Assembly (NCBI GenBank): GCA_041665485.1
Contig: JBAYIT010000002.1
Coordinates: forward strand, 5,867-69,866
DNA: 64,000 nucleotides
Source of the DNA: Candidatus Shapirobacteria bacterium
Lineage (GTDB): Bacteria > Patescibacteriota > Microgenomatia > UBA12405
Direction: 5' to 3'
This document shows, piece after piece, positions 32,608 through 52,059 of the stretch. The first letter of the stretch is position 1; each line of letters begins with the position of its first letter. The notes beneath the pieces were generated by a model. It did not search any database. It was not told where the DNA came from and worked only from the letters and a program-made list of their open reading frames with translations. Position numbers and translations under genes: made by a program.

Positions 32608-33390
32608 ATGAAAAAACCAACAATTTCCATTGCCATCGCCACCTACAATGAAGCTGACAACATTAAACAATGCCTCAAAGCTGTTGTCGATTGGGCTGAT
32701 GAAATCGTCATTTACGATGCTGAATCCATTGACGATACCGTCAAAATCATTAATACTTTCCCCAAAACCAAACTAATCACTGGCCCCAACCATCCTATCT
32801 TTCATATTAATAAGCAACGAGCTATTGACGTTTGTAAATCTGATTGGATTCTCCAGCTTGATGCTGATGAGATTGTCACTCCAGAGCTTAAGTCAGAAAT
32901 TTTGACCACCATTTCAAATAACCCTTCAGAAAATGGTTTTTGGATCGACCGTAAAAATTATTTTCTTGGACGATTCTTAACCAAAGGTGGCGTTTACCCA
33001 GATCCAACTATCCGTCTTTATCGTCGCAATAAAGGCAAATTACCATGTAAAGATGTTCACGAACAGGCAAGAATAATTGGTAGTGTTGGCCATCTTAAAT
33101 CCGACCTTCTCCACTATGCTGACCCTTCTTTTCAACGTTACTTAATGCGCAACAATCGCTACACTGGCCTAATTGCCACCGAATTAGAATCCCAAAAAGT
33201 TCCTCTTAATTTATTCTTCGGCCTAAATTATTTTCTTCTCAAGCCTATTATTAACTTTTTTTCTACTTATTTTCGCCACAAGGGTTTTGCTGATGGTTTT
33301 CCCGGGTTTATCTTTTCTTGGTATTCGTCTCTTCGCTTTCCTATTTCTTTTATCAAATATTGGGAATTAAAAAATGGCAAAACAGATTAA
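32608..33390 (+). CDS. GT2 glycosyltransferase with C-terminal hydrophobic segment (ArnC-like)
   Basis: 'ISIAIATYNEADNIKQCL...DEIVIYDAESIDDT' and 'DADE' DXD. C-terminal 'LFFGLNYFLLKPIINFF'. Confidence 0.7.
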   Translation: MKKPTISIAIATYNEADNIKQCLKAVVDWADEIVIYDAESIDDTVKIINTFPKTKLITGPNHPIFHINKQRAIDVCKSDWILQLDADEIVTPELKSEILTTISNNPSENGFWIDRKNYFLGRFLTKGGVYPDPTIRLYRRNKGKLPCKDVHEQARIIGSVGHLKSDLLHYADPSFQRYLMRNNRYTGLIATELESQKVPLNLFFGLNYFLLKPIINFFSTYFRHKGFADGFPGFIFSWYSSLRFPISFIKYWELKNGKTD

Positions 33391-34447
33391 AGTTGCTCTT
33401 GACATATCTCCCCTCAAAGATGGCAACGCCAACCGTGGCATGGGCTATTATGTCCGCAACTTACTCACCGCCATGCAATCACAAATCTCCTCCAACCCCA
33501 ACTTCAAAAACTTTAAAATTTCAGAAGTTAGAAATTGGAAATTAGAAATTGGAAATTTTGATTTACTCCATATTCCTTACTTCAACCCTTTCTCCCCCTC
33601 CTATCCTATTCATCTCCAAATACCCACAGTCATTACTGTCCCTGACTTAATTCCTATCGCTTACAAAAAACATTACACAGTTGGCATCAAAGGCACACTC
33701 AATTGGTGGCGACAAAAACTATTTCTCAAAAATATTCCCTATATTATCACTATCGCTCACTCTCAAAAATATATCATTCATAAAATTACTGGCTATCCGC
33801 TTGATCGCATTTACGTCACATGGCTAGCTGCCGCCAGCCACTTCAAGCCGGAAACTTCAAAAATAAAACTAAATCAAATTAAGAAAAAATATAATCTGCC
33901 AGACAAATTTGTTCTCTATGTTGGTGATATTAACTGGAATAAAAACATTCCTCGTCTTGTTAGTAGTTGCCTCGATTTAAAATATCCATTAGTTATTGTC
34001 GGTAGCTCCGCCACTAGAAAAAATATTACCGATCATCCTTGGAATCAAGATTTACTTTGGGTCCAATCTCACTCCAATCAAATCACTTTAACTGGTTTTG
34101 TCCCCGACGAAGATATACCTGTCATTTATTCTTTGGCCACTATTTACTGTCAACCATCATATTCCGAAGGTTTTGGTCTACCCTTAGTTGAAGCCATGAA
34201 AACCGGCTGTCCTGTCAGCTATAGTCAAGAGCCAACTTGTCAGGAAATTATGGATTATCACGGTGATTTTTTTGATCCTAACTCTACTGCCGGTCTTAAA
34301 GATTCTCTTAAGAGGCTCTGGTCAGATCCTGAACTTAGGAAAAAGTTAGCAATCGAGGGATTAAAACATTCGCAAATCTTCGACTGGAAACTAACAGCCA
34401 TTCAAACTCTCACTCTTTATTCCCAAATCTACCATGAAAATCACTGA
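33374..34447 (+). CDS. GT4 (GT-B fold) glycosyltransferase
   Basis: 'CQPSYSEGFGLPLVEAMKTGCPVSYS' EX7E region. Carries a GG(A/T)AATT heptamer array at 33523..33557. Confidence 0.7.
   Translation: MAKQIKVALDISPLKDGNANRGMGYYVRNLLTAMQSQISSNPNFKNFKISEVRNWKLEIGNFDLLHIPYFNPFSPSYPIHLQIPTVITVPDLIPIAYKKHYTVGIKGTLNWWRQKLFLKNIPYIITIAHSQKYIIHKITGYPLDRIYVTWLAAASHFKPETSKIKLNQIKKKYNLPDKFVLYVGDINWNKNIPRLVSSCLDLKYPLVIVGSSATRKNITDHPWNQDLLWVQSHSNQITLTGFVPDEDIPVIYSLATIYCQPSYSEGFGLPLVEAMKTGCPVSYSQEPTCQEIMDYHGDFFDPNSTAGLKDSLKRLWSDPELRKKLAIEGLKHSQIFDWKLTAIQTLTLYSQIYHENH
33523..33557 (+). repeat. Heptamer array (AGAAATT/GGAAATT) x5, with a perfect 14-mer x2
   Basis: agaagtt agaaatt ggaaatt agaaatt ggaaatt, inside GT4 33374..34447 (encodes 'EVRNWKLEIGNF'). 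Confidence 0.8.
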
Positions 34448-35237
34448 GCACTTCCTTTCAGTCATCATCCCTATCTATAAACAAGAGAAAACTATTTTGA
34501 CCGATATTACCAATATTCAAAAAACTCTTGATCAAATCCGCTACGATTACGAAATTATCGCCGTAGTTGACGGTAAAAATATCGATCGATCTTATCAAAT
34601 TCTTAAGAAAGCCAAAATTCCCAAAGTTAAAATTTACGGTTACCCCAACAATTATGGTAAAGGTTACGCTGTCCGTTTTGGTATGGCCAAAACTAAGGGC
34701 GACTATGTTGCCTTTATTGATGCCGGTATGGAAATCGACCCTAACGGCATTTCCATGATTCTCGAGCACATGGAGTGGTACAACGCCGATATTATTGTTG
34801 CCTCAAAAAGGCACCCCGCCTCTCAAGTTAAATACCCGTTAGATCGCCAAATTGTTAGTTTCGGCGCCCATCTTATCGCCAGATTTTTGCTCGGCATTAA
34901 TGTTCACGACACTCAAGCCGGTCTTAAAATATTCAAAAGATCAGTTTTGGTAAAGGTTCTTCCTCGACTTTTGGTAAAAAATTATGCTTTTGATTTAGAA
35001 ATATTATCAGTTTCTAATCGCCTTGGTTTTAATCGTATCTTCGAGGCCCCCATTAAACTTAGTTATGCCTTTGATAGTCTAACTCACGCCGGTAGTTACA
35101 AAACTATTATTAGATGTTTTATTGAATCTCTAGCTGTTTTTTATCGTCTAAATATCATTAAATTTTATGATGACAACAACAAGCGACAATGGGTGTTTAA
35201 TAAAGACCTACAAATGAGAATTAATACCGGCCGATGA
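34434..35237 (+). CDS. GT2 glycosyltransferase, DPM1/GtrB-like (candidate polyprenyl-phosphate hexose synthase)
   Basis: 'LSVIIPIYKQE...YEIIAVVDGKNIDRS...YGYPNNYGKGYAVRFGMAKTKGDYVAFIDAGMEIDP' is the typical DPM1/GtrB-like GT2 core. Confidence 0.65.
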   Translation: MKITEHFLSVIIPIYKQEKTILTDITNIQKTLDQIRYDYEIIAVVDGKNIDRSYQILKKAKIPKVKIYGYPNNYGKGYAVRFGMAKTKGDYVAFIDAGMEIDPNGISMILEHMEWYNADIIVASKRHPASQVKYPLDRQIVSFGAHLIARFLLGINVHDTQAGLKIFKRSVLVKVLPRLLVKNYAFDLEILSVSNRLGFNRIFEAPIKLSYAFDSLTHAGSYKTIIRCFIESLAVFYRLNIIKFYDDNNKRQWVFNKDLQMRINTGR

Positions 35238-36151
35238 AACCCCTATTCTCTGTAATTATTCCCGTTCGTCATCCTACCGACTATCTTGAAGAGACAGTCA
35301 GGGCCCTCGACAAGCAGTCTCTTAACAACTTTGAACTCCTAGTTATTACCGACAAAATAGCCGGTAATGTCTCACCGGCAATTAAGCGTAATCTTGGTGC
35401 CAAGATGGCCAAAGGAGAATATCTTGCCTTTCTCGACGACGATTCTTATCCTTCTTCTGATTGGCTCAAAAACGCCCGAAAACACTTTTCCAAAAATATC
35501 ACTGCCGTCTGTGGCCCTTGTTTAACACCTCCAAGTGATGATGTTTTTCGCCAAGCGTCTGGTCTCGTTTGGTCTAGTTTTCTTGGCAGTGGTGGGGCAG
35601 GGGAGTATCGTAATAATATTGCCAAACCTCGATTTGTCGACGATTTTCCTTCTGTCAATTTGATAGTCAAAAAAAGTGATTTTTTAGAAGTTAAAGGCTT
35701 TAATACTCATCACTGGCCGGGAGAAGACACTATTCTTTGTTTAGATCTGACCCACAAACTTCATAAAAAAATCTTCTATCATCCTAGCGTTCAAGTTTTC
35801 CATCACCGCCGAAAAGTTATAATCCCCCATCTTCAACAAATCACCCGCTACGCTATTCATCGTGGTCTTTTTGCTAAAATCTACCCCCAAACTAGCCTTC
35901 GAATTGGTTACATTCTCCCCTCCCTCTTTATTATATATTTATTATTATTGCCGTTATTGCCAAAGACATTTTTAATTCCACTATTTATCTATCTGCTTCT
36001 ACTTCTATTTACTTTTTTCAATTTTATTTTAAAAAATAGCCTTATCGTTTCTCTTTTGGCTACTATCACCATTCCCATTACTCACCTTTATTATGGTATA
36101 TTTTTCATCCGTGGTTTATTCAAAAATGAACTAAAGTTTATCCCCCTATGA
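35234..36151 (+). CDS. GT2 glycosyltransferase with C-terminal TM helices
   Basis: 'LFSVIIPVRHPTDYLEETVRALDKQSL..FELLVITD' and 'FLDDDSYP' DXD. The C-terminal approx. 90 aa are strongly hydrophobic. Confidence 0.7.
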   Translation: MKPLFSVIIPVRHPTDYLEETVRALDKQSLNNFELLVITDKIAGNVSPAIKRNLGAKMAKGEYLAFLDDDSYPSSDWLKNARKHFSKNITAVCGPCLTPPSDDVFRQASGLVWSSFLGSGGAGEYRNNIAKPRFVDDFPSVNLIVKKSDFLEVKGFNTHHWPGEDTILCLDLTHKLHKKIFYHPSVQVFHHRRKVIIPHLQQITRYAIHRGLFAKIYPQTSLRIGYILPSLFIIYLLLLPLLPKTFLIPLFIYLLLLLFTFFNFILKNSLIVSLLATITIPITHLYYGIFFIRGLFKNELKFIPL

Positions 36152-37578
36152 AAATAGCTATTTCATATCCGCCGTTAGATTCATCAAAGGGCTCTGCCTT
36201 TCTTTCTCAAAATCGCCAGTTTCAGTGGACAAACACCGGTAATATTATTTATCCGGTTATCGCTGCTTATGCCGCTACTCTCCTCCAAAAACTTGGCCAT
36301 CAAGTATTTTGGGACGATGCCATTGTTCAAAAACTTGACTATCAAACCTGGCTTAATCGTCTTATCAGACAAAAACCAGATCTCATCGTTATTGAATCCA
36401 AAACTCCGGTTATTAAACTCCATTGGCAAATCATTAAAGACCTAAAAAGAAGGAATTTGGAAATTGGTAATTGGAAATTGGTTATTTGTTTAATTGGCGA
36501 TCATGTTTCCGCTCTCCCTGAAGAATCAATTAAAAATTCCCCCGTCGACTTCGTTTTAGTCGGCGGTGACTACGATTTCTTGCTTGAAAAACTAGTTAAT
36601 CTCTTGTCCAAAAATAAAATACCAAAAAACAAAATTATAAAAGTTAGCCCAACACACAATCTTGATTCGCTCCCCATAATCGACCGAAAACTAACCCAAT
36701 GGCATCTTTATGCCTACAACAACACCAACTATAAATATAAGCCTGGAGCCTACATCATGTCTGGTCGTGACTGCTGGTGGGGGAGTTGTACTTTCTGTTC
36801 TTGGACATCTCTTTTTCCCGGAAAAACATTCCGTAAATTCAGCGTCGACCACACTATCTCTGAAATCGAAAACTTAGTTAACAATTTTGGTGTCAAAGAA
36901 ATTTTTGATGACTCCGGCACTCTTCCCACTGGCCAATGGCTTGAAAACTTATGTCATCAATTAATTGATAAAAAGTTAAGTCAAAAAGTTAAACTCGGTT
37001 GCAATATGCGTTTTGGTGCTTTGAACCAAGAACAATACTATCTAATGAAACAAGCCGGCTTTCGTTTAGTGCTTTATGGCCTTGAATCGGCTAATCAAAA
37101 AACACTTGACTTAATTAATAAAAATGAAAAGACTTCTGATGCTATTAAAACCTTGCAAATGGCCAAAAAGGCCGGCCTTGAACCACATATCACCGTCATG
37201 ATCGGCTATCCTTGGGAAACTGAATCGGATGCCATCAAAACTCTCAATCTTGCTCGTAAAATTTTTCGAGAAGGGTTGGCCGATAGTATCCAAGCCACCC
37301 GAATTATTCCCTATCCGGGCACGGTTCTCTTTAATCAATCCCTCAAAAATAATTGGCTTTTATCTAAAGATTGGCAGGATTATGACATGCGCCAAAGTAT
37401 CATCAAATCACCCATCAGCTCTGCAAAACAAGAAAAACTAATACTTAGCCTTTTTAAGGGTGTTCTCACTCCTAATTTTCTTATTCGCAAAATCCTTTCC
37501 GTTCGGTCTCTTTATGATATTAAGTTTCTTACTGGCTATGCCATCAAATACCTCCAAAAAATCAGGGATTTTAAATAA
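36148..37578 (+). CDS. B12-binding-domain radical SAM enzyme (class B rSAM)
   Basis: N-terminal cobalamin-binding-like domain ('DFVLVGGDYDF') followed by 'SGRDCWWGSCTFCSW' (CxxxCxxC). 476 aa. Carries a GG(A/T)AATT heptamer array at 36453..36487. Confidence 0.7.
   Translation: MKIAISYPPLDSSKGSAFLSQNRQFQWTNTGNIIYPVIAAYAATLLQKLGHQVFWDDAIVQKLDYQTWLNRLIRQKPDLIVIESKTPVIKLHWQIIKDLKRRNLEIGNWKLVICLIGDHVSALPEESIKNSPVDFVLVGGDYDFLLEKLVNLLSKNKIPKNKIIKVSPTHNLDSLPIIDRKLTQWHLYAYNNTNYKYKPGAYIMSGRDCWWGSCTFCSWTSLFPGKTFRKFSVDHTISEIENLVNNFGVKEIFDDSGTLPTGQWLENLCHQLIDKKLSQKVKLGCNMRFGALNQEQYYLMKQAGFRLVLYGLESANQKTLDLINKNEKTSDAIKTLQMAKKAGLEPHITVMIGYPWETESDAIKTLNLARKIFREGLADSIQATRIIPYPGTVLFNQSLKNNWLLSKDWQDYDMRQSIIKSPISSAKQEKLILSLFKGVLTPNFLIRKILSVRSLYDIKFLTGYAIKYLQKIRDFK
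36453..36487 (+). repeat. Heptamer array GG(A/T)AATT x5
   Basis: ggaattt ggaaatt ggtaatt ggaaatt ggttatt, inside the rSAM gene 36148..37578 (encodes 'RNLEIGNWKLVI'). Same unit as 33523..33557. Confidence 0.75.
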
Positions 37579-38266
37579 ACTAGATACTGCAATATTATTG
37601 AAACAGCTTCATTTTAATGATTTCCAGTATCAATCCTCCGTTTTGTCCCACACCAATCATCGCTTAAATATTATGCTTCAGTTCTCTGGAAACAATCAAA
37701 GAGTATTGGATTTAGGTTGTGGTATCGGATATTTTATGGAAATGTTACAAACCAAACATTCAAAAGTGTTTGGAGTAGACATATCAAAAAAGGCTTTATT
37801 AACCGCCAAAAGAAAGGGGCTAAACGTCATCCAATCAAACTTCGAATCAAAACTCCCATTTGACGATAATCAGTTTGATGTTGTAACCGCCGGCGAAATA
37901 ATTGAACACCTCTATAACACCTCTTTATTTTTAGCCGAAATTAGACGAATTTTAAAGAAAAACGGAACGCTTATTATGTCTACTCCAAATGTCGCTTCTT
38001 TAGGTAGAAGATTAATGTTATTATTCGGCGTTAGTCCTTTTCTGGAAACAGAATTATCAAAAACTGATGCTGGCCATGTTCGCTACTTCACTAAAAAGTC
38101 ATTGCTTTCTTTATTGACTAAAAACAAATTTAAACCAGTCCGCCACACATCGGATTCAATCAACTTTAACAACAAACTAGATAGTAAATTAAGATCAAAA
38201 ACATTAGCCAAAGTTTTTCCGACTCTAGGCGCCAGCATTATTGTTGCCTGTATTAACCAGAAATGA
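37460..38266 (+). CDS. Class I SAM-dependent methyltransferase
   Basis: 'RVLDLGCGIGYFMEML' motif I, 'FDVVTAGEIIEHL' and 'LKKNGTLIMSTPN'. The start is uncertain because the ORF overlaps the rSAM gene by 119 nt; the real start is probably downstream (e.g. 37538 or 37673). Confidence 0.65.
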   Translation: MFSLLIFLFAKSFPFGLFMILSFLLAMPSNTSKKSGILNKLDTAILLKQLHFNDFQYQSSVLSHTNHRLNIMLQFSGNNQRVLDLGCGIGYFMEMLQTKHSKVFGVDISKKALLTAKRKGLNVIQSNFESKLPFDDNQFDVVTAGEIIEHLYNTSLFLAEIRRILKKNGTLIMSTPNVASLGRRLMLLFGVSPFLETELSKTDAGHVRYFTKKSLLSLLTKNKFKPVRHTSDSINFNNKLDSKLRSKTLAKVFPTLGASIIVACINQK

Positions 38267-38270
38267 ACCC

Positions 38271-39461
38271 ATGAAACTCAATATCCTTTTTATAATTAAC
38301 GGTCTTGGTTTTTCAAAAAATACCGGTATTGGTGGGTCTGATAAAAGAGCCATTGAGATTGTTAGAAATGCAAAGTTGCTTTATCCAAGCTCTAATTTCG
38401 ATATTATGACCACTGAATCCGGTTATGCCATCTTCTCCCAACAAGAAAAACTAGAAACCAACTATAACATTATTAAAAGACCTAAATGGTGGCCGAGAAT
38501 TTTTGAAAAAACCCTATTGGGAAGATTATTTTCCTACTTTTACTGCACCATTTTCGCCACACACAAGATTATTAACCTTAAAAAATACGATATCGTTTTT
38601 TCCACCAGTGATTTTTTCTTCGATATTATCCCAGCAACCATCTCTAAAACAGTCAACCACCAAAAAATCGTAGCAATGATTCATCATCACATCGCCAGCC
38701 CCTTAAAGCGAAAAGGCGACTTATTGGTCAATATTTTTAATTTCTTATCTCAACAGTTTAGTTATTGGTGGATTAAAAACAATTTTGATTCTGTTTTTTT
38801 ATACAACACTCAAGAAGGTAGACACATCTCCCACTTACTTCTTGGTAGTAAAAAGATCACATTTTATTTTACCGAAAACGGTATAGATAGAGAAAAAATT
38901 GACAACGTTAAAAGTAAATTTAAAAAATACGACGCCTGCTTTGTTGGTGGAATAAGATATAGCAAAGGAATTTTGGACATATTGAACATATGGGAAATAG
39001 TCATTAAAAATTTTCCAAAATCAAAGATCGCCATTGTTGGTGGCGGAAGCAATGAAATAATTAAAAAGTTCAAATCAGAAATTATAATACGAAACTTGAC
39101 CAAAAACGTCTATTTGACTGGACCTCAAAGTAATCAAGAAACAATCTCAATAATGAAACAAAGCAAAATATTTCTCTTTCCCAGCCATGAAGAAGGGTGG
39201 GGGATTGCCCTGAATGAGGCATTGTACTGTGGTCTTCCGACAGTCTGTTACAATCTTCCTGCCTTTTCCATATTTAAGAAATTTCTTTACACTTCAAAAA
39301 TTGGTCACTGGCAAAAATTAGCATCTCACATGATTAAACTTCTCAATTCCAATGTCAATAAATCCAAATCCACTCAATCAATAAAATTTGCCAGTAAGTT
39401 TAACTGGAAGAGTATTACCGTCAAAGACATTAATTTTATTAATTCAATTAATCGTGGATAA
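38271..39461 (+). CDS. GT4 (GT-B fold) glycosyltransferase
   Basis: 'IFLFPSHEEGWGIALNEALYCGLPTVCYNLPAF' EX7E region. The ORF begins at 38241; M11 at 38271 (MKLNILFI) is likely. Confidence 0.7.
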   Translation: MKLNILFIINGLGFSKNTGIGGSDKRAIEIVRNAKLLYPSSNFDIMTTESGYAIFSQQEKLETNYNIIKRPKWWPRIFEKTLLGRLFSYFYCTIFATHKIINLKKYDIVFSTSDFFFDIIPATISKTVNHQKIVAMIHHHIASPLKRKGDLLVNIFNFLSQQFSYWWIKNNFDSVFLYNTQEGRHISHLLLGSKKITFYFTENGIDREKIDNVKSKFKKYDACFVGGIRYSKGILDILNIWEIVIKNFPKSKIAIVGGGSNEIIKKFKSEIIIRNLTKNVYLTGPQSNQETISIMKQSKIFLFPSHEEGWGIALNEALYCGLPTVCYNLPAFSIFKKFLYTSKIGHWQKLASHMIKLLNSNVNKSKSTQSIKFASKFNWKSITVKDINFINSINRG

Positions 39462-40182
39462 TAAAAAGTTTGAATACGACTATTTCCACAAAGAAACTCA
39501 CAGTAACTACCGTGGTTATCACTATCGAGATGTCTATCCCGCCTTCAATTCATATGCCCATATTCTCGTTGGTATGTTAAACCCTAAAAAGATGCTTGAT
39601 ATTGGTTGTGCTAAAGGATACCTGGTTCTCGCTTTCCATAGATTGAAGGTCGATGCCTACGGAGTCGATATCTCTCGTTATGCTATAACCCATGGCCATC
39701 CTGCTATTAAATCCAAAATTAGGGTTCACAATATCGAAACAAAAAAATTACCCTATCCTGATGGTTATTTTGACCTTGTAACCTCATGTGAAGTAATTGA
39801 GCATGTTGTTAAACACAAGCTTGTTTTTAAGGAAATAAAGCGAGTCTTATCTCCCAACGGCATTGTTTTTTTAACTACTCCAGTTAAAAATATTTTAAAT
39901 AAAGACGGTGTCCCAGCCGACAAAACCCACGTCAGTGTTTTTCCCAGAAAAAAATGGCTAAAAATGTTTGATCAAATTTCATTGAAATCAATCAGTGGAC
40001 TTCGCTATCTCAAACTATCTCTAAATCTCACCAATACTATGTATCAAAACCCTGCCAAAAGCAATCTCGGCCAATTTTTGGAAAAATTGGGAGTAATTGG
40101 CCGAAAATTAAGATTTCTAATCCTATTTTATGATGTTTTTTTTCATTATCAAACTGATGTCTTTCTTCTTAAAAAAAGCTAA
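39388..40182 (+). CDS. Class I SAM-dependent methyltransferase (paralog of 37460..38266)
   Basis: 'KMLDIGCAKGYLVLAF', 'FDLVTSCEVIEHV', 'LSPNGIVFLTTP'. The N-terminus overlaps the upstream GT4 by about 70 nt in another frame, so the true start is probably later or non-ATG. Confidence 0.6.
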   Translation: MPVSLTGRVLPSKTLILLIQLIVDNKKFEYDYFHKETHSNYRGYHYRDVYPAFNSYAHILVGMLNPKKMLDIGCAKGYLVLAFHRLKVDAYGVDISRYAITHGHPAIKSKIRVHNIETKKLPYPDGYFDLVTSCEVIEHVVKHKLVFKEIKRVLSPNGIVFLTTPVKNILNKDGVPADKTHVSVFPRKKWLKMFDQISLKSISGLRYLKLSLNLTNTMYQNPAKSNLGQFLEKLGVIGRKLRFLILFYDVFFHYQTDVFLLKKS

Positions 40183-41324
40183 TTGCCCACCACCTTTTTA
40201 TAGACTTCCAGAGTTTGTTCAGCAAACCTTTGCCAAGAGAAACATTTCGCTCTTTTGATACTTTTTTTTATCATCTCTCTTCTTTTTTCTCCTTTTAAAT
40301 TAAGGATTTTATTCAATTCTTCCGCCATTTGGTTAGTGTCGTTTGGATCAACTAAAACAGCGGCATCCTTTACGACCTCTTTCATTGCCCCACAGTTACT
40401 TGTTATTACCGGACAACCACATGCCATCGATTCAACCAGAGGAAGTCCAAAACCTTCTTCAAATGAAGGGAAAAACATCACATCAGCCGCCGAATAATAT
40501 TTTGCCACTTCTTTTTCGGAAAAACTCTCTCGGTAAATAACTTTATTGTTCAAACGATGCTTCTTAAGCATGTTACCAATTTCACTAGTTTTATTTCCTA
40601 AACGGATTAAAACAACTTCATCATCCAGATCATATTTTTTCTTTAATATCGCCAATGCCTCAACCACACCAAGCACATTTTTTCTCGCCAATTCATTGCC
40701 AACATGAAGCACAATTTTCTTGCTTTTTGCTAGTTTCAATTCATCTCTAGCTCTATTTTTTGGATATGGCTTAAAAATCTCATGATTAACTCCGCTATAT
40801 ACAACACTTATCTTTTTCGGGTCAACACTTAATATTTTTATAGCTTCGCACTTGGTATATTCCGACACGCAAATAACTGCGTCCGCCTTTTTCAAGCGAA
40901 GAATACTCATTCTTATTAACCGACCATAAATTCCATCAAGAAATTTGTTACCTAACTTATCATGATATTTAAACTGTAGCACGTCAAACAAGGTCACCAC
41001 ATTGGGTCGATAATAATCGACCAAAAACCCCAACATCTGATTAGTAATATGATAAACATCATATCCCTTAGGAAGCCTAAATCTATCCACAAAATAAATT
41101 AAAAACCGGGAGATATTCGGGTGATCAAAATAGGCAAACTTTTGTAAAAAGTTAACCCCTTTATTTTCCACCCAGCCTAGCTCCCCCTTTTTTATTACAT
41201 GCGTACAAAATAAGTCAGCCTTCACTTTATCTATTTTTTTAAACATCATCCATAAAGCATAGGCGTTTCTTCCTGCACCGGAATATGGGGGAAAATTATT
41301 AATCAAGCACACTTTCATAATCAA
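40179..41324 (-). CDS. GT4 (GT-B fold) glycosyltransferase
   Basis: 'MFFPSFEEGFGLPLVESMACGCPVITSNCGAMKEVV' EX7E region. Convergent with the methyltransferase and overlaps it by 4 nt. Confidence 0.75.
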   Translation of the reverse strand: MIMKVCLINNFPPYSGAGRNAYALWMMFKKIDKVKADLFCTHVIKKGELGWVENKGVNFLQKFAYFDHPNISRFLIYFVDRFRLPKGYDVYHITNQMLGFLVDYYRPNVVTLFDVLQFKYHDKLGNKFLDGIYGRLIRMSILRLKKADAVICVSEYTKCEAIKILSVDPKKISVVYSGVNHEIFKPYPKNRARDELKLAKSKKIVLHVGNELARKNVLGVVEALAILKKKYDLDDEVVLIRLGNKTSEIGNMLKKHRLNNKVIYRESFSEKEVAKYYSAADVMFFPSFEEGFGLPLVESMACGCPVITSNCGAMKEVVKDAAVLVDPNDTNQMAEELNKILNLKGEKRREMIKKSIKRAKCFSWQRFAEQTLEVYKKVVGN

Positions 41325-42757
41325 AGATTGAGCCTTAACTTTAACTTCAATAAAACAAAATTAATCAAACGCTTAATCGGTCCAATTTTTATCATCCTAA
41401 AAATAACCTTAGTTAAAAAAGTTTTGTATATCAACCAAGACAGCAAAAAAGCTATTGCCAAACCGCCCAGCTTTCTCGTCATATCCCTTCTTTTTAATTC
41501 CATATTTACCCAACTTCCCAAAACTAATGCCTTTTTCCTCTCTTCGGCAGTAAAATCCTTTGTTTCAAAAATAGGCACAAATTCCAAATGGGCAATTGTG
41601 TTCAAATAATTATTCGGTTGTAATATAAATAGGCCATTATCTGTCACCCATTTAAACAATTCTGTCCCGGGAAATGGAATAAGATTATAAAAAGTTGCCG
41701 TACTTATTGGATATTTCAGCGCAAAGTCGATTGACTTTTTAAATGTTTTCGTCGTTTCTCCGGGCAAACCGACTATAAAAAACAACGATACCTCTAAGCC
41801 GACTTTCAACGCCATCTTAACCGCTTTTTCAATCTGCTTGTTCGTTTCACCCTTCTTAACTCTTACTAACACTTCTGAATCGAAAGTCTCCACTCCAAAG
41901 GCAATCGCTTTAAAGCCAACGTCTTTCATTCTCTTTAATAATTCCTCGGTAGACAAATCAGCCCTAATCCCATTACCGCATTGCATAAACAAGTCTTTCA
42001 TTTTAGCCTTTTCAATCAAATCAAAAAGTCTGTAGACTCTTTCTTTATTTACGGTAAAATTGTCGTCCTGAAAGTCAAAATCTCTATAACCAATGTCATA
42101 CCAGTATTTCAATTCGGAAAAAATATTTTCTGCAGAACGAAAACGATACCGTTTTCCCATAACCGTCGAAATTGGACAAAATATACACTGATAGGGGCAT
42201 CCTCGCGAAGAAATTATTGGCACCCTTTTCCGGGTATACTGGCTCATATCTACATTTTTATATTTTGGAAACGGGATTAAATCAAGTTCCTCGATAATCA
42301 TCGGCTGATTTATCTTCAATTTCTTATTCTGTCTATAAATTAGGCCATCAATCTGTTTTAGTGGTTTGCCTTTACAAAATTCAACTAAAGAGATTTCTGC
42401 CTCATTCATAAATCCATAGTCAGCCCCACTTTCTTTTACTGCCACTTCTTTTAAGGTCGAAACATGAGGACCACCAACAGCAATGGGTTTATCAAATTGT
42501 TTAAGAAAACCAACTATTTCATACGCTAAATTATGATAATAGGTCATCACCGTCACCCCAAATAAATCTGGTTTAAACTCTTCAATTGTTCTTCTCAGTA
42601 TTTCATAGCCATTACCCAATCGGAAATCCACCACTCGACTTTCAATTCCATTAACCTCAAGACTCTGTGATAAATAACCGATACCAGTATGAGGATGTGT
42701 CGGTAATCCATACCTATTTGGAAACGGTGGTATACAAAATAGAACTTTCTTAATCAT
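41321..42757 (-). CDS. B12-binding-domain radical SAM enzyme (class B rSAM; second copy)
   Basis: N-terminal B12-binding-like domain ('DLFGVTVMTYY...IAVGGPH') followed by 'SSRGCPYQCIFCPIS' (CxxxCxxC). 478 aa. Confidence 0.7.
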   Translation of the reverse strand: MIKKVLFCIPPFPNRYGLPTHPHTGIGYLSQSLEVNGIESRVVDFRLGNGYEILRRTIEEFKPDLFGVTVMTYYHNLAYEIVGFLKQFDKPIAVGGPHVSTLKEVAVKESGADYGFMNEAEISLVEFCKGKPLKQIDGLIYRQNKKLKINQPMIIEELDLIPFPKYKNVDMSQYTRKRVPIISSRGCPYQCIFCPISTVMGKRYRFRSAENIFSELKYWYDIGYRDFDFQDDNFTVNKERVYRLFDLIEKAKMKDLFMQCGNGIRADLSTEELLKRMKDVGFKAIAFGVETFDSEVLVRVKKGETNKQIEKAVKMALKVGLEVSLFFIVGLPGETTKTFKKSIDFALKYPISTATFYNLIPFPGTELFKWVTDNGLFILQPNNYLNTIAHLEFVPIFETKDFTAEERKKALVLGSWVNMELKRRDMTRKLGGLAIAFLLSWLIYKTFLTKVIFRMIKIGPIKRLINFVLLKLKLRLNL

Positions 42758-43868
42758 TTTTAATCACCTCTAAATATTCTTTTTCATACAATCTAATTTG
42801 TTTTTCCCAATCAAACATCAAAGATCTTTTCTTTGAATTGTTTGCCAATGTTTTTCTTAAATTACCATCACCAACAACCTCAATTAACTTATTTGTCAGA
42901 TCAACACTATCGCTCTTTCTAAAAAATAATCCGCTGTCAGCCACAACTTCCGGGCAAGCATCAACATCTGTTGCCACTATCGGCAATCCCGCCGCCATCG
43001 CTTCAATAAAAACTATTCCAAACCACTCTTCTTTACTGGTCAATAAAAAAAGATTGGCAACGCCATAGTAATACGGCAGTTCATCATCAGTCACGAAACC
43101 TAACATCTTTACGGTCGATCTCAATTTCCTTTTTTTAATTTCTATCTCGATCTCCCCCTTTGATATCCCGGTTCCCGCAATCATAAACTTTATCTTTCCA
43201 TTAATTTTTCTAATTCGATCGGCCGCTTTTATTAGGGTTAAAAGGTCCTTTCTCGGTTCGAGTCGGCAAACCGTTAAAATCATAAATTCGCCCTTCTTAA
43301 CCAACTTTGATCTTAAAGTCCCCAATCTCTCTTTATCTAAAACAAATTTTTTAAAATCAATCCCGATATAAATCAGTTTTGAAACTAAACCGTGCCTTTG
43401 TTTGTAAATCATAGCTTCATACTTTGAAATAGCGATTCTTTGATTGGCAAATTTCGCCGCTTGAGCCTCCATCGGTGTATACCCCTCTAATATAAAGATA
43501 AATGGCACACCAAATAACCATCGATAAAGCCTTGCTATTACAGCTTCTGTAACAAAATGAACTGAAATAACATCATATCTTTCACCGCCTAGTTTCAATT
43601 TTAACAGCATAATCATCGATTTAAACATGAAAAGTAAAGTATAAAAATATACCCGCCAGTCGTTATATGAATGATCTGTTTCCCTATAACTTTTACTAAT
43701 TCTTATAACTTTGATTGCCTTATCTAAGTCAGTCAACCTCTCGCCCTCTCTCGTCAATATTGTTATTGTATGCCCTAATTGACTAAAACGCTTTGCTAAC
43801 TCCAACAGATGCGTTTCTGTACCGCCACCATGAACCCCCACCCAACGATGAAAAAATAGAACTTTCAT
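42750..43868 (-). CDS. GT4 (GT-B fold) glycosyltransferase
   Basis: 'LLTSKEEWFGIVFIEAMAAGLPIVATDVDACPEVV'. Confidence 0.75.
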   Translation of the reverse strand: MKVLFFHRWVGVHGGGTETHLLELAKRFSQLGHTITILTREGERLTDLDKAIKVIRISKSYRETDHSYNDWRVYFYTLLFMFKSMIMLLKLKLGGERYDVISVHFVTEAVIARLYRWLFGVPFIFILEGYTPMEAQAAKFANQRIAISKYEAMIYKQRHGLVSKLIYIGIDFKKFVLDKERLGTLRSKLVKKGEFMILTVCRLEPRKDLLTLIKAADRIRKINGKIKFMIAGTGISKGEIEIEIKKRKLRSTVKMLGFVTDDELPYYYGVANLFLLTSKEEWFGIVFIEAMAAGLPIVATDVDACPEVVADSGLFFRKSDSVDLTNKLIEVVGDGNLRKTLANNSKKRSLMFDWEKQIRLYEKEYLEVIKND

Positions 43869-44827
43869 GTTTTAAATATTCCCTCCACATATCCGGTAAT
43901 ACCTTTAAGTTGTGAAACATCTTTTTTAGACACAGCCGAATACATCCAATAAACATTAAGCACTAAAATATTCAAGACAGCTCCCAATAAAGATCTTAAA
44001 CTTTTTGGTCGTAAATGCTTTCGGTGAAATATGCCGGTGTCTTTACCTATGTAATAGGCGTTTCTTGATGGTCCGATTCTTACCATATGTTTTACTTTTA
44101 TTTTAGGAGAAAAAATGAGCTTGTATTCAGCTTGCTTAATTCTCAAGAACAAATCTCCGTCAGCATGGTTAAAATTATATATCTCATCAAAGCCGCCAAG
44201 CTCATCTAACACCTCTCTTTTAATTCCCATGCTTGTCGTTGTCAATAAATCTATTTCAGCTCGAGAAAAATTAATCGATTCTGGCAAGGCTGTCCCAAAC
44301 GAATACGCTCCACTACCAAAGTACTTTCCCGGTACCGTAGGACAATTTTCCATTGCTAGATAAATATACGGACCAATAAACATTTTTCCCAGTACACTGG
44401 ATCTCATTTTTAAATATAAACTATGCATTTCACCGGTTGGGTAACAACTAGAAATTACTGGCCCACTAACAGCTGCAATTCTCTCATTCTTATCTAATTC
44501 AATCTTGATATTTTTTAACCAATCTTTGTCAGCCACTGCATCATCAGCCAAAAAAGCAACATATTCAGTTTTTACTTCCTTCCATCCTATGTTGAACAAA
44601 ACTGATAATCTTTTTATCGAGCAGACCACCACTTTCACCTCAATTTTATTCAAAAACAATTTAACAATCTTCTCAACACCAATCTGATTAACATTATTTT
44701 CAACCAAAACCACTTTAAAATTCCGATAACTCTGTTGCGCCAATGAATCCAGACATTTTTCCAAGTCAACACCTCTATAATTGTGTGGATAGGTATTAAC
44801 CACTACGGTAATCATTTCTTTAGTCAT
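43865..44827 (-). CDS. GT2 family glycosyltransferase
   Basis: 'ITVVVNTYPHNYRG..LEKCLDSLAQQSY.NFKVVLVEN' and 'LADDAVADKDW' are a GT-A-like N-terminal domain. Confidence 0.6.
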   Translation of the reverse strand: MTKEMITVVVNTYPHNYRGVDLEKCLDSLAQQSYRNFKVVLVENNVNQIGVEKIVKLFLNKIEVKVVVCSIKRLSVLFNIGWKEVKTEYVAFLADDAVADKDWLKNIKIELDKNERIAAVSGPVISSCYPTGEMHSLYLKMRSSVLGKMFIGPYIYLAMENCPTVPGKYFGSGAYSFGTALPESINFSRAEIDLLTTTSMGIKREVLDELGGFDEIYNFNHADGDLFLRIKQAEYKLIFSPKIKVKHMVRIGPSRNAYYIGKDTGIFHRKHLRPKSLRSLLGAVLNILVLNVYWMYSAVSKKDVSQLKGITGYVEGIFKT

Positions 44828-45980
44828 TTTTTAAGGCCTTTTGATACACGTCAACAGTTTTCTGTCCGACTACTTGCCAACCTCTTTTCCTAGCCGTTTT
44901 CAATGCCCCATTCTCTAGTTTCTCTTTCAACCCTTTCTCCAACACTAAACGATTCATTACGTTGGTTAAACTTTCTATGTTTCCAGATTGGCAATACAGA
45001 CCACTAACACCATCTTCAATCTCTTCCGACAACGTTCCGATCTTAGCTACCACCACCGCCTTCCCAAAACCCAATGCTATTGACAGAGGCAAGCTCGAAG
45101 AGATTGATCGCGTATATGGGAAAACTACAAAATTGGCCTTTTCGTAAAATTTATCTATTTCTTTCTGGCTCAAAAAACCGGTAAAGACAACTTTGTTCTT
45201 TAACTTTAACCTCGCCACCACCATTCTAAGATGCTTCATGTAGTCCTCATAACCACTTAAAACTCCGCCAGCAATTACTAATCGGGCCCTCGGACTGATT
45301 TTCAAATGTTTCTCGAAAGCAATTATAAGTTCATCCAAACCTTTTCTTTCCAGTACATAGCCAAAAAATAAAACCAAATGATTTTTAATTTTACCGCATT
45401 TTCTTTCTTCTATTCCTATTGTTACAACACTGACGCGACTTCTCATCCCATAGTCTCTTTGGCAAACCTCTTTCGTATAGTTCGAGTGGACAATAACCAT
45501 ATTTGATAATCTCCAAACCAATCCAAAAAAAACCCTGAAACTCAAGCCAACCACCACAGGATTACCTTTAATTTTCATCATTTTTAAAAAATCAGCATCA
45601 ATTTCCCTTATCGATGGAATAGCGTGAATTGTCACCACCACTTTTTTGCCAGAAATTCTTAATAACAAAATTGCCATAGGAAGAGTAAACAAACCAAGAA
45701 GTCTGCCGTACATATTAAATTCGTGTTGAAAATGAACCAGCTCGACTTTTTCTTCTAATGCTTTCTTCAAAATTAAAAACGGAAACAAAAAATTGTTTTG
45801 CCAAAAAACAACGATCTTTTTATCCTTTTCCTTCTTTGCGTAGTCAACATTTTCTAGGCAGTAATCAACCCATAACCGAGGATTACTTCCACTATCTACC
45901 AATCCCTTATACAAATATCTTGTATAGTGAGTTTCCGGTTGAATCGTCGAAACAATCGCAACTTTTACCTCTTTTTTCAT
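44820..45980 (-). CDS. GT4-like (GT-B fold) glycosyltransferase
   Basis: 'VVFPYTRSISSSLPLSIALGFGKAVVVAKIGTLSEEIEDGVSGL' C-terminal donor-binding-like region. Confidence 0.6.
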   Translation of the reverse strand: MKKEVKVAIVSTIQPETHYTRYLYKGLVDSGSNPRLWVDYCLENVDYAKKEKDKKIVVFWQNNFLFPFLILKKALEEKVELVHFQHEFNMYGRLLGLFTLPMAILLLRISGKKVVVTIHAIPSIREIDADFLKMMKIKGNPVVVGLSFRVFFGLVWRLSNMVIVHSNYTKEVCQRDYGMRSRVSVVTIGIEERKCGKIKNHLVLFFGYVLERKGLDELIIAFEKHLKISPRARLVIAGGVLSGYEDYMKHLRMVVARLKLKNKVVFTGFLSQKEIDKFYEKANFVVFPYTRSISSSLPLSIALGFGKAVVVAKIGTLSEEIEDGVSGLYCQSGNIESLTNVMNRLVLEKGLKEKLENGALKTARKRGWQVVGQKTVDVYQKALKND

Positions 45981-47674: not shown

Positions 47675-47693
47675 ATCAAAATTCTATCATCTC

Positions 47694-48683: not shown

Positions 48684-48705
48684 CCCAAAATGCTATCATA
48701 CAAAA

Positions 48706-49506: not shown

Positions 49507-49507
49507 T

Positions 49508-51794: not shown

Positions 51795-52059
51795 CAACCA
51801 ATATCTTGAATATATGAATTTAACCACCGACGCCAAGCGAGCTGTCTACGAACTAGTAAGTCCAGAAATAGGAAACAACAGCTACTTCCTCCGTCAATAT
51901 TTGTTTGGTATTTCTCAATACTTTTCCCACTTAAAAAACTTTCGCCAGTCTTTTAACCTCGACTTACTTGAATCCTCAAACACCAATCCAAAAATCAAGG
52001 CAGAATATTTACTCGACAACAACCGAATAATTTTGAATTTTATTAAAAAATCTTCTTAA
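51787..52059 (+). CDS. Small hypothetical protein (90 aa)
   Basis: ORF overlapping the upstream stop by 8 nt. No recognisable motif. Confidence 0.35.
   Translation: MNNNQYLEYMNLTTDAKRAVYELVSPEIGNNSYFLRQYLFGISQYFSHLKNFRQSFNLDLLESSNTNPKIKAEYLLDNNRIILNFIKKSS

What the first reader, a model, noticed from the sequence alone, without database searches (positions are those of the whole stretch)
36148..43868. Mirror-arranged module: two B12-binding radical SAM enzymes, two paralogous class I methyltransferases and three GT4 glycosyltransferases
Plus strand: rSAM 36148..37578 (CWWGSCTFC), MTase 37460..38266, GT4 38271..39461, MTase 39388..40182. Minus strand: GT4 40179..41324, rSAM 41321..42757 (CPYQCIFC), GT4 42750..43868. 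Both rSAMs have an N-terminal cobalamin-binding-type domain. Class B rSAMs typically catalyse radical C-methylation on unactivated carbons (GenK, Fom3) or ring rearrangements (HpnJ). Two of them next to SAM methyltransferases and GT-B transferases suggests a glycan that is heavily methylated or otherwise radical-modified, possibly with both C- and O-methyl sugars. Such a combination inside a protein or cell-wall glycosylation locus is, to my knowledge, not characterised.
Basis: partly seen in the sequence, partly recalled or inferred. Interest (0 to 1): 0.75.

Follow-up and report, generated by a model that had tools for sequence, protein, structure and literature searches.

The report
Radical SAM enzymes in variable glycan locus
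Two cobalamin-type radical SAM enzymes sit among sugar-transferring and methylating enzymes in the strain-variable part of a large cell-surface glycan locus of an uncultivated Shapirobacteria (CPR) bacterium. Natural fusions of such enzymes to glycosyltransferases elsewhere show they work on the glycan, but the chemistry is still unknown.

Summary
All seven ORFs exist at the stated coordinates with the stated domains.

Three points need qualifying:
- The "mirror" is gene order only. The two rSAMs share 26% identity, there are no DNA inverted repeats, and relatives carry the same genes colinearly.
- rSAM1 has a non-canonical CX4CX2C cluster motif and a doubtful cobalamin site. rSAM2 has all three structural cobalamin motifs.
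- The module is not a unit. rSAM1 ends a conserved Shapirobacteria block (GT-C x3-4, GT2, GT4, GT2, GT2, rSAM1). MT1 through GT4 44820-45980 form a cassette that differs even between close relatives and ends at a TPR membrane protein.

The functional link between rSAM, GT and MT is strongly supported. The GT4-rSAM2-GT4 order persists down to about 40% identity. This rSAM clade is naturally fused to GT4-GT4 (at least 13 clusters), to GT2 (6) and to class I methyltransferases (2).

The chemistry is unresolved. It could be C-methylation, ring contraction or deoxygenation of a lipid-linked sugar. Neither enzyme reaches the cut-off of any curated family. I found no paper on such loci.

Verdict: a new variant of a known kind, of moderate interest.

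The parts
24713..35237 (+). Conserved core upstream of rSAM1. It holds four to five PMT/PMT_2-like GT-C membrane glycosyltransferases (24713-32607), then GT2 (32608-33390), GT4 (33374-34447) and GT2 (34434-35237).
   Evidence: Pfam. The same order, at 47-89% identity, is found in seven other Shapirobacteria loci.
35234..36151 (+). GT2 with C-terminal hydrophobic segments (residues 220-292), an architecture like polyprenyl-phosphate sugar synthases. Its stop overlaps the rSAM1 start by 4 nt.
   Evidence: Pfam PF00535 2e-13. Hydropathy. Always directly upstream of rSAM1 in relatives, at 58-76% identity.
36148..37578 (+). rSAM1: a class-B-architecture radical SAM enzyme with a CX4CX2C cluster motif (C209, C214, C217). 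It is the last gene of the conserved core.
   Evidence: Pfam and NCBIfam. Motif conservation. AF2 model and Foldseek. More than 120 homologue clusters at 63-82% identity; every source name shown reads Shapirobacteria, though most clusters are unnamed.
37538..38266 (+). MT1: a class I SAM methyltransferase. The ORF opens at 37460; the likely start is 37538 or 37598.
   Evidence: Pfam Methyltransf_11 2e-22. A 49% homologue directly follows rSAM1 in L089, and a 44% homologue directly follows rSAM2 in L006. rSAM1::MT fusion P0138.
38271..39461 (+). GT4a: a GT-B/GT4 glycosyltransferase.
   Evidence: Pfam Glycos_transf_1 6e-22. It is the best window match, at only 28% identity, of the GT4 that follows rSAM2(-MT) in L004 and L006.
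39388..40182 (+). MT2: a class I SAM methyltransferase. The likely start is GTG 39454. Its stop overlaps the stop of the convergent GT4b by 4 nt.
   Evidence: Pfam Methyltransf_11 3e-19. 29% identical to MT1. No orthologue in the ten compared loci.
40179..41324 (-). GT4b: a GT4 glycosyltransferase downstream of rSAM2.
   Evidence: Pfam 1e-35. It is the closest window match (31-32% over about 290 aa) to the C-terminal GT4 of the 1239-aa rSAM::GT4::GT4 fusions.
41321..42757 (-). rSAM2: a class-B radical SAM enzyme with a canonical CPYQCIFC motif, all three cobalamin-domain motifs and a hydrophobic C-terminal helix (residues 430-453).
   Evidence: Pfam PF02310 47 bits and PF04055 100 bits. AF2 pLDDT 94.4, best fold hit TsrM. 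Motif positions. Hydropathy.
42750..43868 (-). GT4c: a GT4 glycosyltransferase directly upstream of rSAM2.
   Evidence: Pfam 7e-34. The orthologue keeps this position in L093 (77%), L004 (59%) and L006 (55%).
43865..45980 (-). GT2 (43865-44827) and GT4 (44820-45980).
   Evidence: Pfam. GT2 orthologues at 79%, 42% and 39% in L093, L006 and L004, upstream of GT4c-rSAM2.
45977..50236 (.). Conserved right anchor and export genes. It holds a multi-TM protein with C-terminal TPR repeats (45977-47674, -), an Acyl_transf_3 O-acyltransferase (47694-48683, -), and an ABC-2 permease plus ATPase (48706-50236, +).
   Evidence: Pfam. About 10 hydrophobic segments in the TPR protein. The TPR protein closes the variable cassette in L003, L089, L090, L092 and L093.

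Best explanation
The region is the junction between the conserved core and a strain-variable tailoring cassette of a very large cell-envelope glycosylation locus. The host is a Candidatus Shapirobacteria (CPR/Microgenomates) bacterium.

rSAM1 is a core enzyme. It is translationally coupled to a membrane-anchored GT2. I infer that it modifies the sugar of a lipid-linked (polyprenyl-phosphate) intermediate before the many GT-C enzymes use it.

rSAM2 is a cassette enzyme that works with its flanking GT4s. GT4c adds a sugar to a membrane-bound oligosaccharide. rSAM2, anchored by a C-terminal hydrophobic helix, modifies an unactivated carbon of that sugar by 5'-deoxyadenosyl-radical chemistry with cobalamin. 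GT4b or GT4a then extends the chain. MT1 and MT2 add conventional O- or N-methyl groups. The product would be exported by the adjacent ABC-2 transporter, or by the Wzx-like flippase at 3554-5011, and attached outside the membrane by GT-C/TPR proteins.

Shown: the domain architectures, the conserved versus variable layout, and the physical and evolutionary coupling of rSAM to GT4, GT2 and MT.

Inferred: the lipid-linked substrate, the order of steps and the reaction type. My single best guess for rSAM2 is cobalamin-dependent C-methylation, at about 40%. For rSAM1 the reaction type is open.
For: Organism and family:
- Both proteins are 100% matches to a Shapirobacteria MAG, and rSAM1 has more than 120 homologue clusters at 63-82% identity.

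Core versus cassette:
- GT-C x3-4, GT2, GT4, GT2, GT2, rSAM1 is conserved at 47-89% identity in L001, L003, L089-L092 and L095.
- The genes between rSAM1 and the TPR protein differ in every locus. This holds even at 82% rSAM1 identity (L095) and 83% rSAM2 identity (L093, where the GT4 after rSAM2 differs).
- Cassette GC is 0.34-0.36 against 0.38-0.39 in the flanks.

Coupling of rSAM2 to GT4:
- GT4c-rSAM2-GT4 order in L093, L004, L005 and L006 at 58-83% identity, and GT4-rSAM-MT in L007 at 45%.
- L013, an archaeal MAG at 40% identity, has GT4-rSAM-GT4.
- All 6 of the closest genome loci have a GT within 3.5 kb, as do 25 of all 44 loci with adequate flanks.

Rosetta-stone fusions:
- B12-rSAM::GT4::GT4 of about 1240 aa in at least 13 clusters. 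The rSAM part is 42% identical to rSAM2 and the last GT4 is 31-32% identical to GT4b.
- B12-rSAM::GT2 in 6 clusters.
- B12-rSAM::MT in P0408 and P0138.

Class-B architecture:
- AF2 and Foldseek.
- The rSAM2 Cbl motifs G66-x-T68-x-M70, G94-G95 and A119-E120 (family consensus G-E) lie at the topological positions described in PMC9204698.

No room for a peptide substrate:
- All genes from 35234 to 47674 abut or overlap.

Precedents for rSAMs acting on sugars or lipid-linked sugars:
- GenK, GenD1, Fms7, MoeK5, HpnJ and OxsB (PMC9204698, PMC4340712).
- Cds and HpnJ (PMC13459092).
- AprD4 (PDB 6fd2).
Against: - No curated family is reached. The best hit for both is HpnJ TIGR03471, at 132 and 155 bits against a cut-off of 577.6. 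Homology therefore does not fix the reaction.
- HpnJ, BchE and the ladderane enzyme, which are the top three hits of rSAM1, are non-methylases.
- rSAM1's best fold match is AprD4, which I recall to be cobalamin-independent. rSAM1 also lacks the G-x-S/T-x motif: V81-I-E83-S-K85 sits at the equivalent positions.
- CPR bacteria are generally thought not to make cobalamin (my own knowledge). The window shows no uptake genes.
- The substrate and its carrier are inferred from context only.
- rSAM2's second-best NCBIfam hit is a RiPP enzyme, ApyD (120 bits, cut-off 750).
Confidence: 0.6

Rival explanations
1. One or both rSAMs are non-methylating radical rearrangement enzymes of the HpnJ, Cds or OxsB type. 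They would contract a lipid-linked pyranose to a carbocyclic cyclitol or a similar product, giving a glycosidase-resistant linkage.
For: - HpnJ is the top NCBIfam hit for both enzymes, with near full-length alignments.
- rSAM1's next hits, BchE and the ladderane rSAM, are also non-methylases.
- rSAM1 shares the rare CX4CX2C motif with OxsB.
- HpnJ and Cds are both proposed to act on a hexose that a glycosyltransferase has attached to a lipid. This resembles the GT2-rSAM1 pair.
Against: - The scores are 4-5 fold below the HpnJ cut-off.
- HpnJ clusters with the C-methylases Fom3 and MoeK5 in the published similarity network, so being HpnJ-like does not discriminate.
- GenD1, a sugar C-methylase, also has CX4CX2C.
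- No HpnK-like deacetylase is adjacent.
- rSAM2's best fold hits are methylases: TsrM, MgmA and CysS.
Confidence: 0.2
2. rSAM1 in particular is a cobalamin-independent enzyme that keeps a vestigial B12-like domain. Like AprD4, it would carry out dehydration/deoxygenation, or else epimerisation or oxidation, of a sugar.
For: - AprD4 is the best fold match of rSAM1, with TM 0.69-0.72 over the full length.
- It is also the best PDB sequence match.
- The PF02310 score is below the gathering threshold.
- The downstream Cbl motif is missing, and the GG and GE motifs are changed to GD and GD.
- This would remove the need for cobalamin in a CPR organism.
Against: - AprD4 NF033070 scores 42.7 bits against a cut-off of 500.
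- Several rSAM1 relatives do pass PF02310.
- No AprD3-like reductase partner is adjacent.
- Class-B enzymes vary widely at these motifs.
Confidence: 0.12
3. The rSAMs modify the lipid carrier, a membrane lipid or a peptide (RiPP-like), and their proximity to GTs is incidental.
For: - Weak NCBIfam hits to lipid enzymes (ladderane rSAM, HpnR) and RiPP enzymes (ApyD, rSAM_ocin_1).
- Relatives form tandem arrays of up to 7 rSAMs without nearby GTs in some genomes, for example L057 and L088. This is reminiscent of proteusin-type clusters.
Against: - Covalent fusions to GT4-GT4, GT2 and MT.
- GT4-rSAM-GT4 order is conserved across phyla.
- There is no intergenic space for a precursor peptide.
- There is no SPASM domain and no extra Cys motif.
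- CPR bacteria are thought to lack de novo lipid synthesis (my own knowledge).
Confidence: 0.06

Closest known systems
GenK, GenD1 and Fms7 (aminoglycoside pathways) and MoeK5 (moenomycin): cobalamin-dependent rSAM C-methyltransferases acting on sugars
   Same: - Class-B architecture: an N-terminal Rossmann domain plus an rSAM barrel.
- A sugar substrate within a pathway rich in glycosyltransferases.
- Class I methyltransferases in the same pathway. In gentamicin biosynthesis, GenN and GenD1 act in the same four-step stretch.
- GenD1 shares the CX4CX2C motif with rSAM1.
- By my recollection, MoeK5 acts on a lipid-linked oligosaccharide.
   Different: - Those enzymes belong to secondary-metabolite clusters of actinomycetes. 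Here the setting is a cell-envelope glycan locus with GT-C enzymes, an ABC transporter and a hypervariable cassette.
- No sequence comparison with these proteins was possible, because no models or sequences were available in the tools.
- Fusions to GT4 or GT2 are not known for them.
HpnJ (hopanoid cyclitol ether formation; TIGR03471) and Cds (calditol synthase)
   Same: - HpnJ is the best curated-family hit for both rSAMs.
- Both precedents are proposed to act on a hexose that a glycosyltransferase first attached to a lipid. This parallels GT2-rSAM1 and GT4c-rSAM2.
   Different: - The scores of 132 and 155 bits are far below the cut-off of 577.6.
- There are no hopanoid or GDGT genes here, and no deacetylase.
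- The HpnJ and Cds reactions themselves are known from genetics only.
AprD4 (PDB 6fd2), the radical SAM 1,2-diol dehydratase of apramycin biosynthesis
   Same: - It is the best structural match of rSAM1 and a top match of rSAM2 (TM 0.69-0.77).
- It is of similar length, at about 455-478 aa.
- It acts on a sugar (paromamine).
   Different: - Identity is 16-18%, and NF033070 scores 43 and 85 bits against a cut-off of 500.
- AprD4 does not use cobalamin, whereas rSAM2 keeps all three Cbl motifs.
O-antigen/capsule-type hypervariable glycan loci
   Same: - Conserved flanks with a variable central cassette of GTs and tailoring enzymes.
- Lower GC in the cassette.
- An ABC-2 transporter and a Wzx-like flippase nearby.
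   Different: - The cassette repertoire is unusually rich in radical SAM enzymes. Across the eight cassettes seen there are 0-3 class-B and 0-3 SPASM rSAMs each.
- The host is a CPR bacterium whose envelope glycans are uncharacterised.

Membership tests
Radical SAM superfamily (PF04055) | Pfam score above the gathering cut-off, and a three-Cys [4Fe-4S] motif (CX3CX2C or a known variant) | tested here: met
   rSAM1 scores 54.7 bits and rSAM2 100.5 bits against a cut-off of 29.5. rSAM2 has CPYQCIFC. rSAM1 has the CX4CX2C variant CWWGSCTFC, conserved in 119 of 120 homologues. OxsB and GenD1 are precedents for this variant.
Class B (cobalamin-dependent) radical SAM enzymes | An N-terminal Rossmann-type cobalamin-binding domain preceding the rSAM barrel | tested here: met
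   The AF2 models show a five-stranded beta/alpha N-terminal domain. Full-length Foldseek hits are TsrM, MgmA, OxsB, TokK, CysS and AprD4. PF02310 is above cut-off for rSAM2 (47 bits) and below it for rSAM1 (18.6 against 32.1).
Class B (cobalamin-dependent) radical SAM enzymes | The cobalamin-contact motifs: G-x-S/T-x-X after beta3, Gly-Gly on beta4 and Gly-Glu at the start of alpha5 (PMC9204698) | tested here: inconclusive
   rSAM2 has G66-V-T68-V-M70, invariant G94-G95 and A119-E120 (family consensus G-E), all at the expected positions in the model. rSAM1 has V81-I-E83-S-K85, G117-D118 and G140-D141. So the motifs are met for rSAM2 and doubtful for rSAM1.
Class B (cobalamin-dependent) radical SAM enzymes | Actual binding of cobalamin, and activity that depends on it | not testable with these tools
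   This needs purified protein. The rest of the genome (uptake and salvage genes) lies outside the window.
HpnJ (TIGR03471 equivalog) | Whole-protein score at or above the curated cut-off of 577.6 bits | tested here: not met
   132.0 bits for rSAM1 and 154.9 bits for rSAM2. It is the best hit for both, but neither is a member.
AprD4 family diol dehydratase (NF033070) | Score at or above the cut-off of 500 bits | tested here: not met
   42.7 and 85.3 bits. The resemblance is at fold level only.
BchE, PhpK, HpnR, MgmA (TIGR04014), TIGR04295 'B12_rSAM_oligo' and the ladderane rSAM | Score at or above each family's curated cut-off | tested here: not met
   All hits are 3-12 fold below their cut-offs.
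SPASM/twitch radical SAM (peptide or sugar modifying) | A C-terminal Cys-rich auxiliary-cluster domain (PF13186) | tested here: not met
   Neither protein has a PF13186 hit. rSAM2 is the only ORF of 80 aa or more with a CX3CX2C motif, so no extra cluster motif of that spacing is present. SPASM rSAMs do occur in the cassettes of relatives L001, L092 and L095.
GenK, GenD1, MoeK5 and Fom3-type C-methyltransferases | Phylogenetic or similarity-network co-clustering with the characterised enzymes | not tested
   No sequences or models of these enzymes were available in the tools. Only the shared CX4CX2C motif of GenD1 is known, from PMC4340712.
GT4 (GT-B) glycosyltransferases | PF00534 above its cut-off | tested here: met
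   78, 123 and 117 bits against a cut-off of 26.4 for GT4a, GT4b and GT4c. None reaches any NCBIfam equivalog cut-off, including TIGR04157 'glyco_rSAM_CFB'.
Class I SAM-dependent methyltransferases (Methyltransf_11) | PF08241 above its cut-off | tested here: met
   80 and 70 bits against a cut-off of 21.2. No NCBIfam equivalog is reached, so the acceptor atom (O, N or C) is unknown.

The most novel reading that the evidence does not exclude
CPR and other uncultivated lineages may diversify their surface glycans with a mix-and-match repertoire of radical SAM enzymes. These enzymes would work inside glycosyltransferase assemblies (GT4-rSAM-GT4, sometimes as one polypeptide) on lipid-linked oligosaccharides. 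They would install C-methyl, carbocyclic or deoxy sugars of kinds not yet seen in cell-envelope glycans. This would be a strain-variable 'radical glycan editing' system, and it would depend on scavenged cobalamin in organisms that cannot make it.
Probability: 0.3. Interest if true: 0.8.

Novelty: new variant of a known kind. Interest (0 to 1): 0.55.

Why it matters
Class-B radical SAM enzymes that tailor sugars are known from a handful of antibiotic and hopanoid pathways. Here a large, widespread and uncharacterised clade is tied to cell-surface glycan assembly by gene order and by repeated covalent fusions. The lineages involved (CPR, Omnitrophota, Chloroflexota, DPANN and other archaea) have essentially unknown envelopes.

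If the chemistry is C-methylation or ring contraction on a lipid-linked oligosaccharide, three things follow:
- It would add a new class of glycan modification.
- It would imply a cobalamin dependence of surface structure in organisms thought not to make cobalamin.
- It would offer a tractable entry point, because the single-polypeptide rSAM::GT4::GT4 fusion brings the enzyme together with its likely substrate-forming GTs.

The hypervariable cassette also suggests selection, by phage or host recognition, on these modifications.

Tried and rejected
I used the look-up of encoding contigs on individual homologues instead.
- A profile search of the rSAM1 alignment against PDB sequences aligned only the rSAM core. 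It could not place the N-terminal cobalamin motifs, so I used DSSP positions from the AF2 models.
- DNA-level inverted or direct repeats that could explain the mirror layout or an invertible segment: only short chance matches.
- Promoter and terminator scans showed no enrichment over shuffles and no terminator at the convergent junction at 40179-40182.
- Four literature searches for B12-rSAM in CPR, O-antigen, capsule or glycan contexts returned nothing relevant.
- I rejected recent duplication of the two rSAMs or the two MTs (26% and 29% identity).
- I rejected a RiPP system: there is no precursor space and no SPASM domain, and the clade is fused to GTs.
- I rejected membership of HpnJ, BchE, AprD4 and the other curated families, because all scores are far below their cut-offs.

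Full report
**1. Observation**

Pfam confirms the domain calls:
- Radical_SAM for both rSAMs, at 1.7e-14 and 1.4e-28.
- Methyltransf_11 for both MTs.
- Glycos_transf_1 for the three GT4s.

The B12-binding domain (PF02310) is above the gathering score for rSAM2 (47 bits). For rSAM1 it is not (18.6 against 32.1). The fold is nevertheless present in both:
- The rSAM1 AF2 model (pLDDT 85.4, pTM 0.89) has a five-stranded beta/alpha N-terminal domain. Its best full-length PDB matches are AprD4, TsrM, MgmA and OxsB.
- The rSAM2 model (pLDDT 94.4) matches TsrM, MgmA, AprD4, CysS, OxsB and TokK.

rSAM1's CWWGSCTFC is CX4CX2C, not CX3CX2C. It is conserved as CWWGxCxFC in 119 of 120 homologues. The same variant is known in OxsB and GenD1. 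These are the only two rSAMs I found in the window: rSAM2 is the only ORF with a CX3CX2C motif, and Pfam gave Radical_SAM hits to no other ORF scanned.

**2. The "mirror" is not a unit**

- rSAM1 and rSAM2 share 26% identity.
- MT1 and MT2 share 29%.
- The region has only short chance repeats at DNA level.

In two related Microgenomates contigs (L004, L006) homologues of the cassette genes lie on one strand. The order is GT2 (like 43865-44827, 39-42%), GT4 (like GT4c, 55-59%), rSAM2 (58-64%), MT (44% to MT1, in L006 only), then a GT4 whose best window match is GT4a at only 28%. An rSAM1 homologue (46%) lies upstream. The convergent layout in the window is therefore a rearrangement of a colinear cassette.

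All genes from 35234 to 47674 abut or overlap. The two convergent stop codons overlap at 40179-40182.

**3. Organism and wider context**

Both rSAMs are 100% identical to proteins of a Candidatus Shapirobacteria MAG, on a 335-kb contig.

The whole 64-kb window is a glycosylation super-locus. It holds:
- at least ten PMT/PMT_2/GT87-type GT-C membrane proteins;
- more than a dozen GT2s and seven GT4s;
- a Wzx-like flippase;
- an ABC-2 transporter;
- an O-acyltransferase;
- an NDP-sugar epimerase/dehydratase.

**4. Conserved core versus variable cassette**

I examined seven other Shapirobacteria loci: L001, L003, L089-L092 and L095. In all of them the block GT-C x3-4, GT2, GT4, GT2, GT2, rSAM1 is conserved in order and at 47-89% identity. 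Where the contig reaches it, a multi-TM/TPR protein on the opposite strand closes the region.

What lies between differs in every locus. The cassettes are mixtures of:
- GT2 and GT4;
- class I MTs (present in 8 of 8 cassettes);
- hexapeptide acyltransferases and carbamoyltransferase;
- an aminotransferase/TPP enzyme;
- 0-3 further class-B rSAMs and 0-3 SPASM rSAMs.

The cassette differs even at 82% rSAM1 identity (L095). At 83% rSAM2 identity (L093) the right half is shared, but the GT4 after rSAM2 is a different gene. Cassette GC is 0.34-0.36 against 0.38-0.39 in the flanks.

So rSAM1 belongs to the conserved core. It overlaps the stop of a GT2 that has C-terminal TM segments. rSAM2, MT1, MT2 and the GT4s belong to an O-antigen-like hypervariable cassette.

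**5. Functional coupling**

The GT4-rSAM2-GT4 order persists from 83% down to about 40% identity, including in an archaeal MAG, L013.

I surveyed 44 species-representative genome loci of the rSAM2 family that have at least 3.5 kb on both sides:
- 25 have a GT within 3.5 kb, including all 6 of the closest.
- 12 have an MT.
- 19 have another class-B rSAM.

These are lower bounds, because the HMMs were built from window proteins only, and no genomic background was computed.

The strongest evidence is a set of natural fusions:
- A 1239-aa B12-binding + Radical_SAM + GT4 + GT4 protein in L009 and L010. The rSAM part is 42% identical to rSAM2, and the last GT4 is 31-32% identical to GT4b. It recurs in at least 13 protein clusters at 60-100% identity.
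- B12-rSAM::GT2 in six clusters.
- B12-rSAM::MT in P0408.
- rSAM1::MT in P0138, seen on two contigs from two different samples.

MT1-type genes directly follow rSAM1 in L089 (49%) and rSAM2 in L006 (44%). These are the same three partner types as in the window.

**6. Cobalamin**

The review PMC9204698 defines three contact motifs in structurally solved class-B enzymes.

| Motif | Expected position | rSAM2 | rSAM1 |
|---|---|---|---|
| G-x-S/T-x-X | after beta3 | G66-V-T68-V-M70 | V81-I-E83-S-K85 |
| Gly-Gly | on beta4 | G94-G95 (invariant) | G117-D118 |
| Gly-Glu | start of alpha5 | A119-E120 (family consensus G-E) | G140-D141 |

rSAM2 has all three at the predicted topological positions. rSAM1 does not. 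Together with AprD4, which I recall to be cobalamin-independent, as its best fold match, this leaves cobalamin use by rSAM1 doubtful. A one-residue shift would give I-E-S/T-K-T, so I call the rSAM1 result inconclusive.

**7. Reaction type**

No curated family is reached. The best hit for both is HpnJ, at 132 and 155 bits against a cut-off of 577.6.
- For rSAM1 the next hits are BchE and the ladderane rSAM.
- For rSAM2 they are ApyD, PhpK, Sden_1168 and MgmA-type families.

All are far below their cut-offs.

Precedents for this architecture acting on sugars span three chemistries:
- C-methylation: GenK, GenD1, Fms7 and MoeK5.
- Ring contraction: HpnJ and OxsB, plus Cds (whose rSAM class I did not check). 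HpnJ and Cds are proposed to act on lipid-linked hexoses.
- Diol dehydration: AprD4.

My rough odds:
- rSAM2: C-methylation about 40%, rearrangement about 20%, other about 40%.
- rSAM1: open.

The hydrophobic C-terminal helix of rSAM2 (residues 430-453) and the membrane-anchored GT2 upstream of rSAM1 fit a membrane-bound, polyprenyl-linked substrate. This is inference only.

**8. Novelty**

Four full-text searches found no paper on class-B rSAMs in CPR or cell-surface glycan loci. Public annotations read only "radical SAM protein" or mis-assign BchE.

The kind of enzyme, a sugar-tailoring class-B rSAM, is known. Three things appear undescribed: its embedding in cell-envelope glycan assembly, the fusions to GTs, and the hypervariable rSAM-rich cassettes. 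I rate it a new variant of a known kind, with interest 0.55.

Noticed in passing
P0242, P0243, P0244, P0252, P0253 (relatives of rSAM1, window 36148-37578); also P0412, P0429, P0430, P0433: Several relatives of these rSAMs carry an intein, made of a Hint domain usually with a LAGLIDADG homing endonuclease. In the rSAM1 relatives the alignment to rSAM1 resumes at residues 205-215. The intein therefore appears to sit in or just before the CX4CX2C cluster-binding loop, with C214 a possible +1 nucleophile. The exact junction was not mapped.
   Followed up: partly
L057, L088, L044 (genome-contig loci); P0306, P0313, P0321: Relatives of rSAM2 occur as tandem arrays of 5-7 class-B rSAM genes in Omnitrophota, Bathyarchaeia and unclassified MAGs. 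They also occur as giant single proteins of 1700-2100 aa that fuse 3-4 rSAM domains (B12-type, plus SPASM in two of the three). Their function is unknown, and some arrays have no nearby GT.
   Followed up: partly
L091:15692-20696; L004-L006 and L095: Other cassettes carry alternative sugar-tailoring chemistry beside class-B rSAMs. L091 has a TPP-dependent enzyme, a DegT aminotransferase and an epimerase, a set reminiscent of branched-chain sugar formation. L004-L006 and L095 have a carbamoyltransferase; in L004-L006 an SxtJ-like protein follows it.
   Followed up: no
window 1-64000: GC skew on the + strand is negative in every 2-kb window (-0.06 to -0.41; cumulative -7.65). This holds whichever strand the genes are on, for example about -0.31 both at 28-34 kb (+ genes) and at 40-46 kb (- genes). 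It is weaker (-0.11 to -0.17) at 34-40 kb.
   Followed up: no
window 45977-47674 (-): The protein that closes the variable cassette has about 10 hydrophobic segments (residues 36-394) followed by TPR repeats (421-565). The membrane part has no Pfam or NCBIfam family. The architecture recalls GT-C/TMTC-type or ligase-like enzymes with a substrate-binding TPR domain.
   Followed up: partly
window 5001-6644, 11316-12638(-), 15758-17119, 17039-18406(-), 20533-21747(-), 23393-24655(-), 26316-27872: Seven ORFs of 400-550 aa inside the glycosylation locus have no or only marginal family hits. The best is NF046093, a 'cell surface glycopolymer formation protein', at 2e-8 for 15758-17119. They are probably further membrane glycosyltransferases or polymerases.
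   Followed up: partly
window 52043-53020 (-) and L003, L092: A CofD-family (2-phospho-L-lactate transferase-like) gene lies beyond the TPR protein: next to it in L003 and L092, and about 4 kb away in the window. It is an unexpected family for a glycan locus in an organism not expected to make F420.
   Followed up: no
The search for related loci on metagenome contigs failed with 'unexpected contig name'.
   Followed up: no
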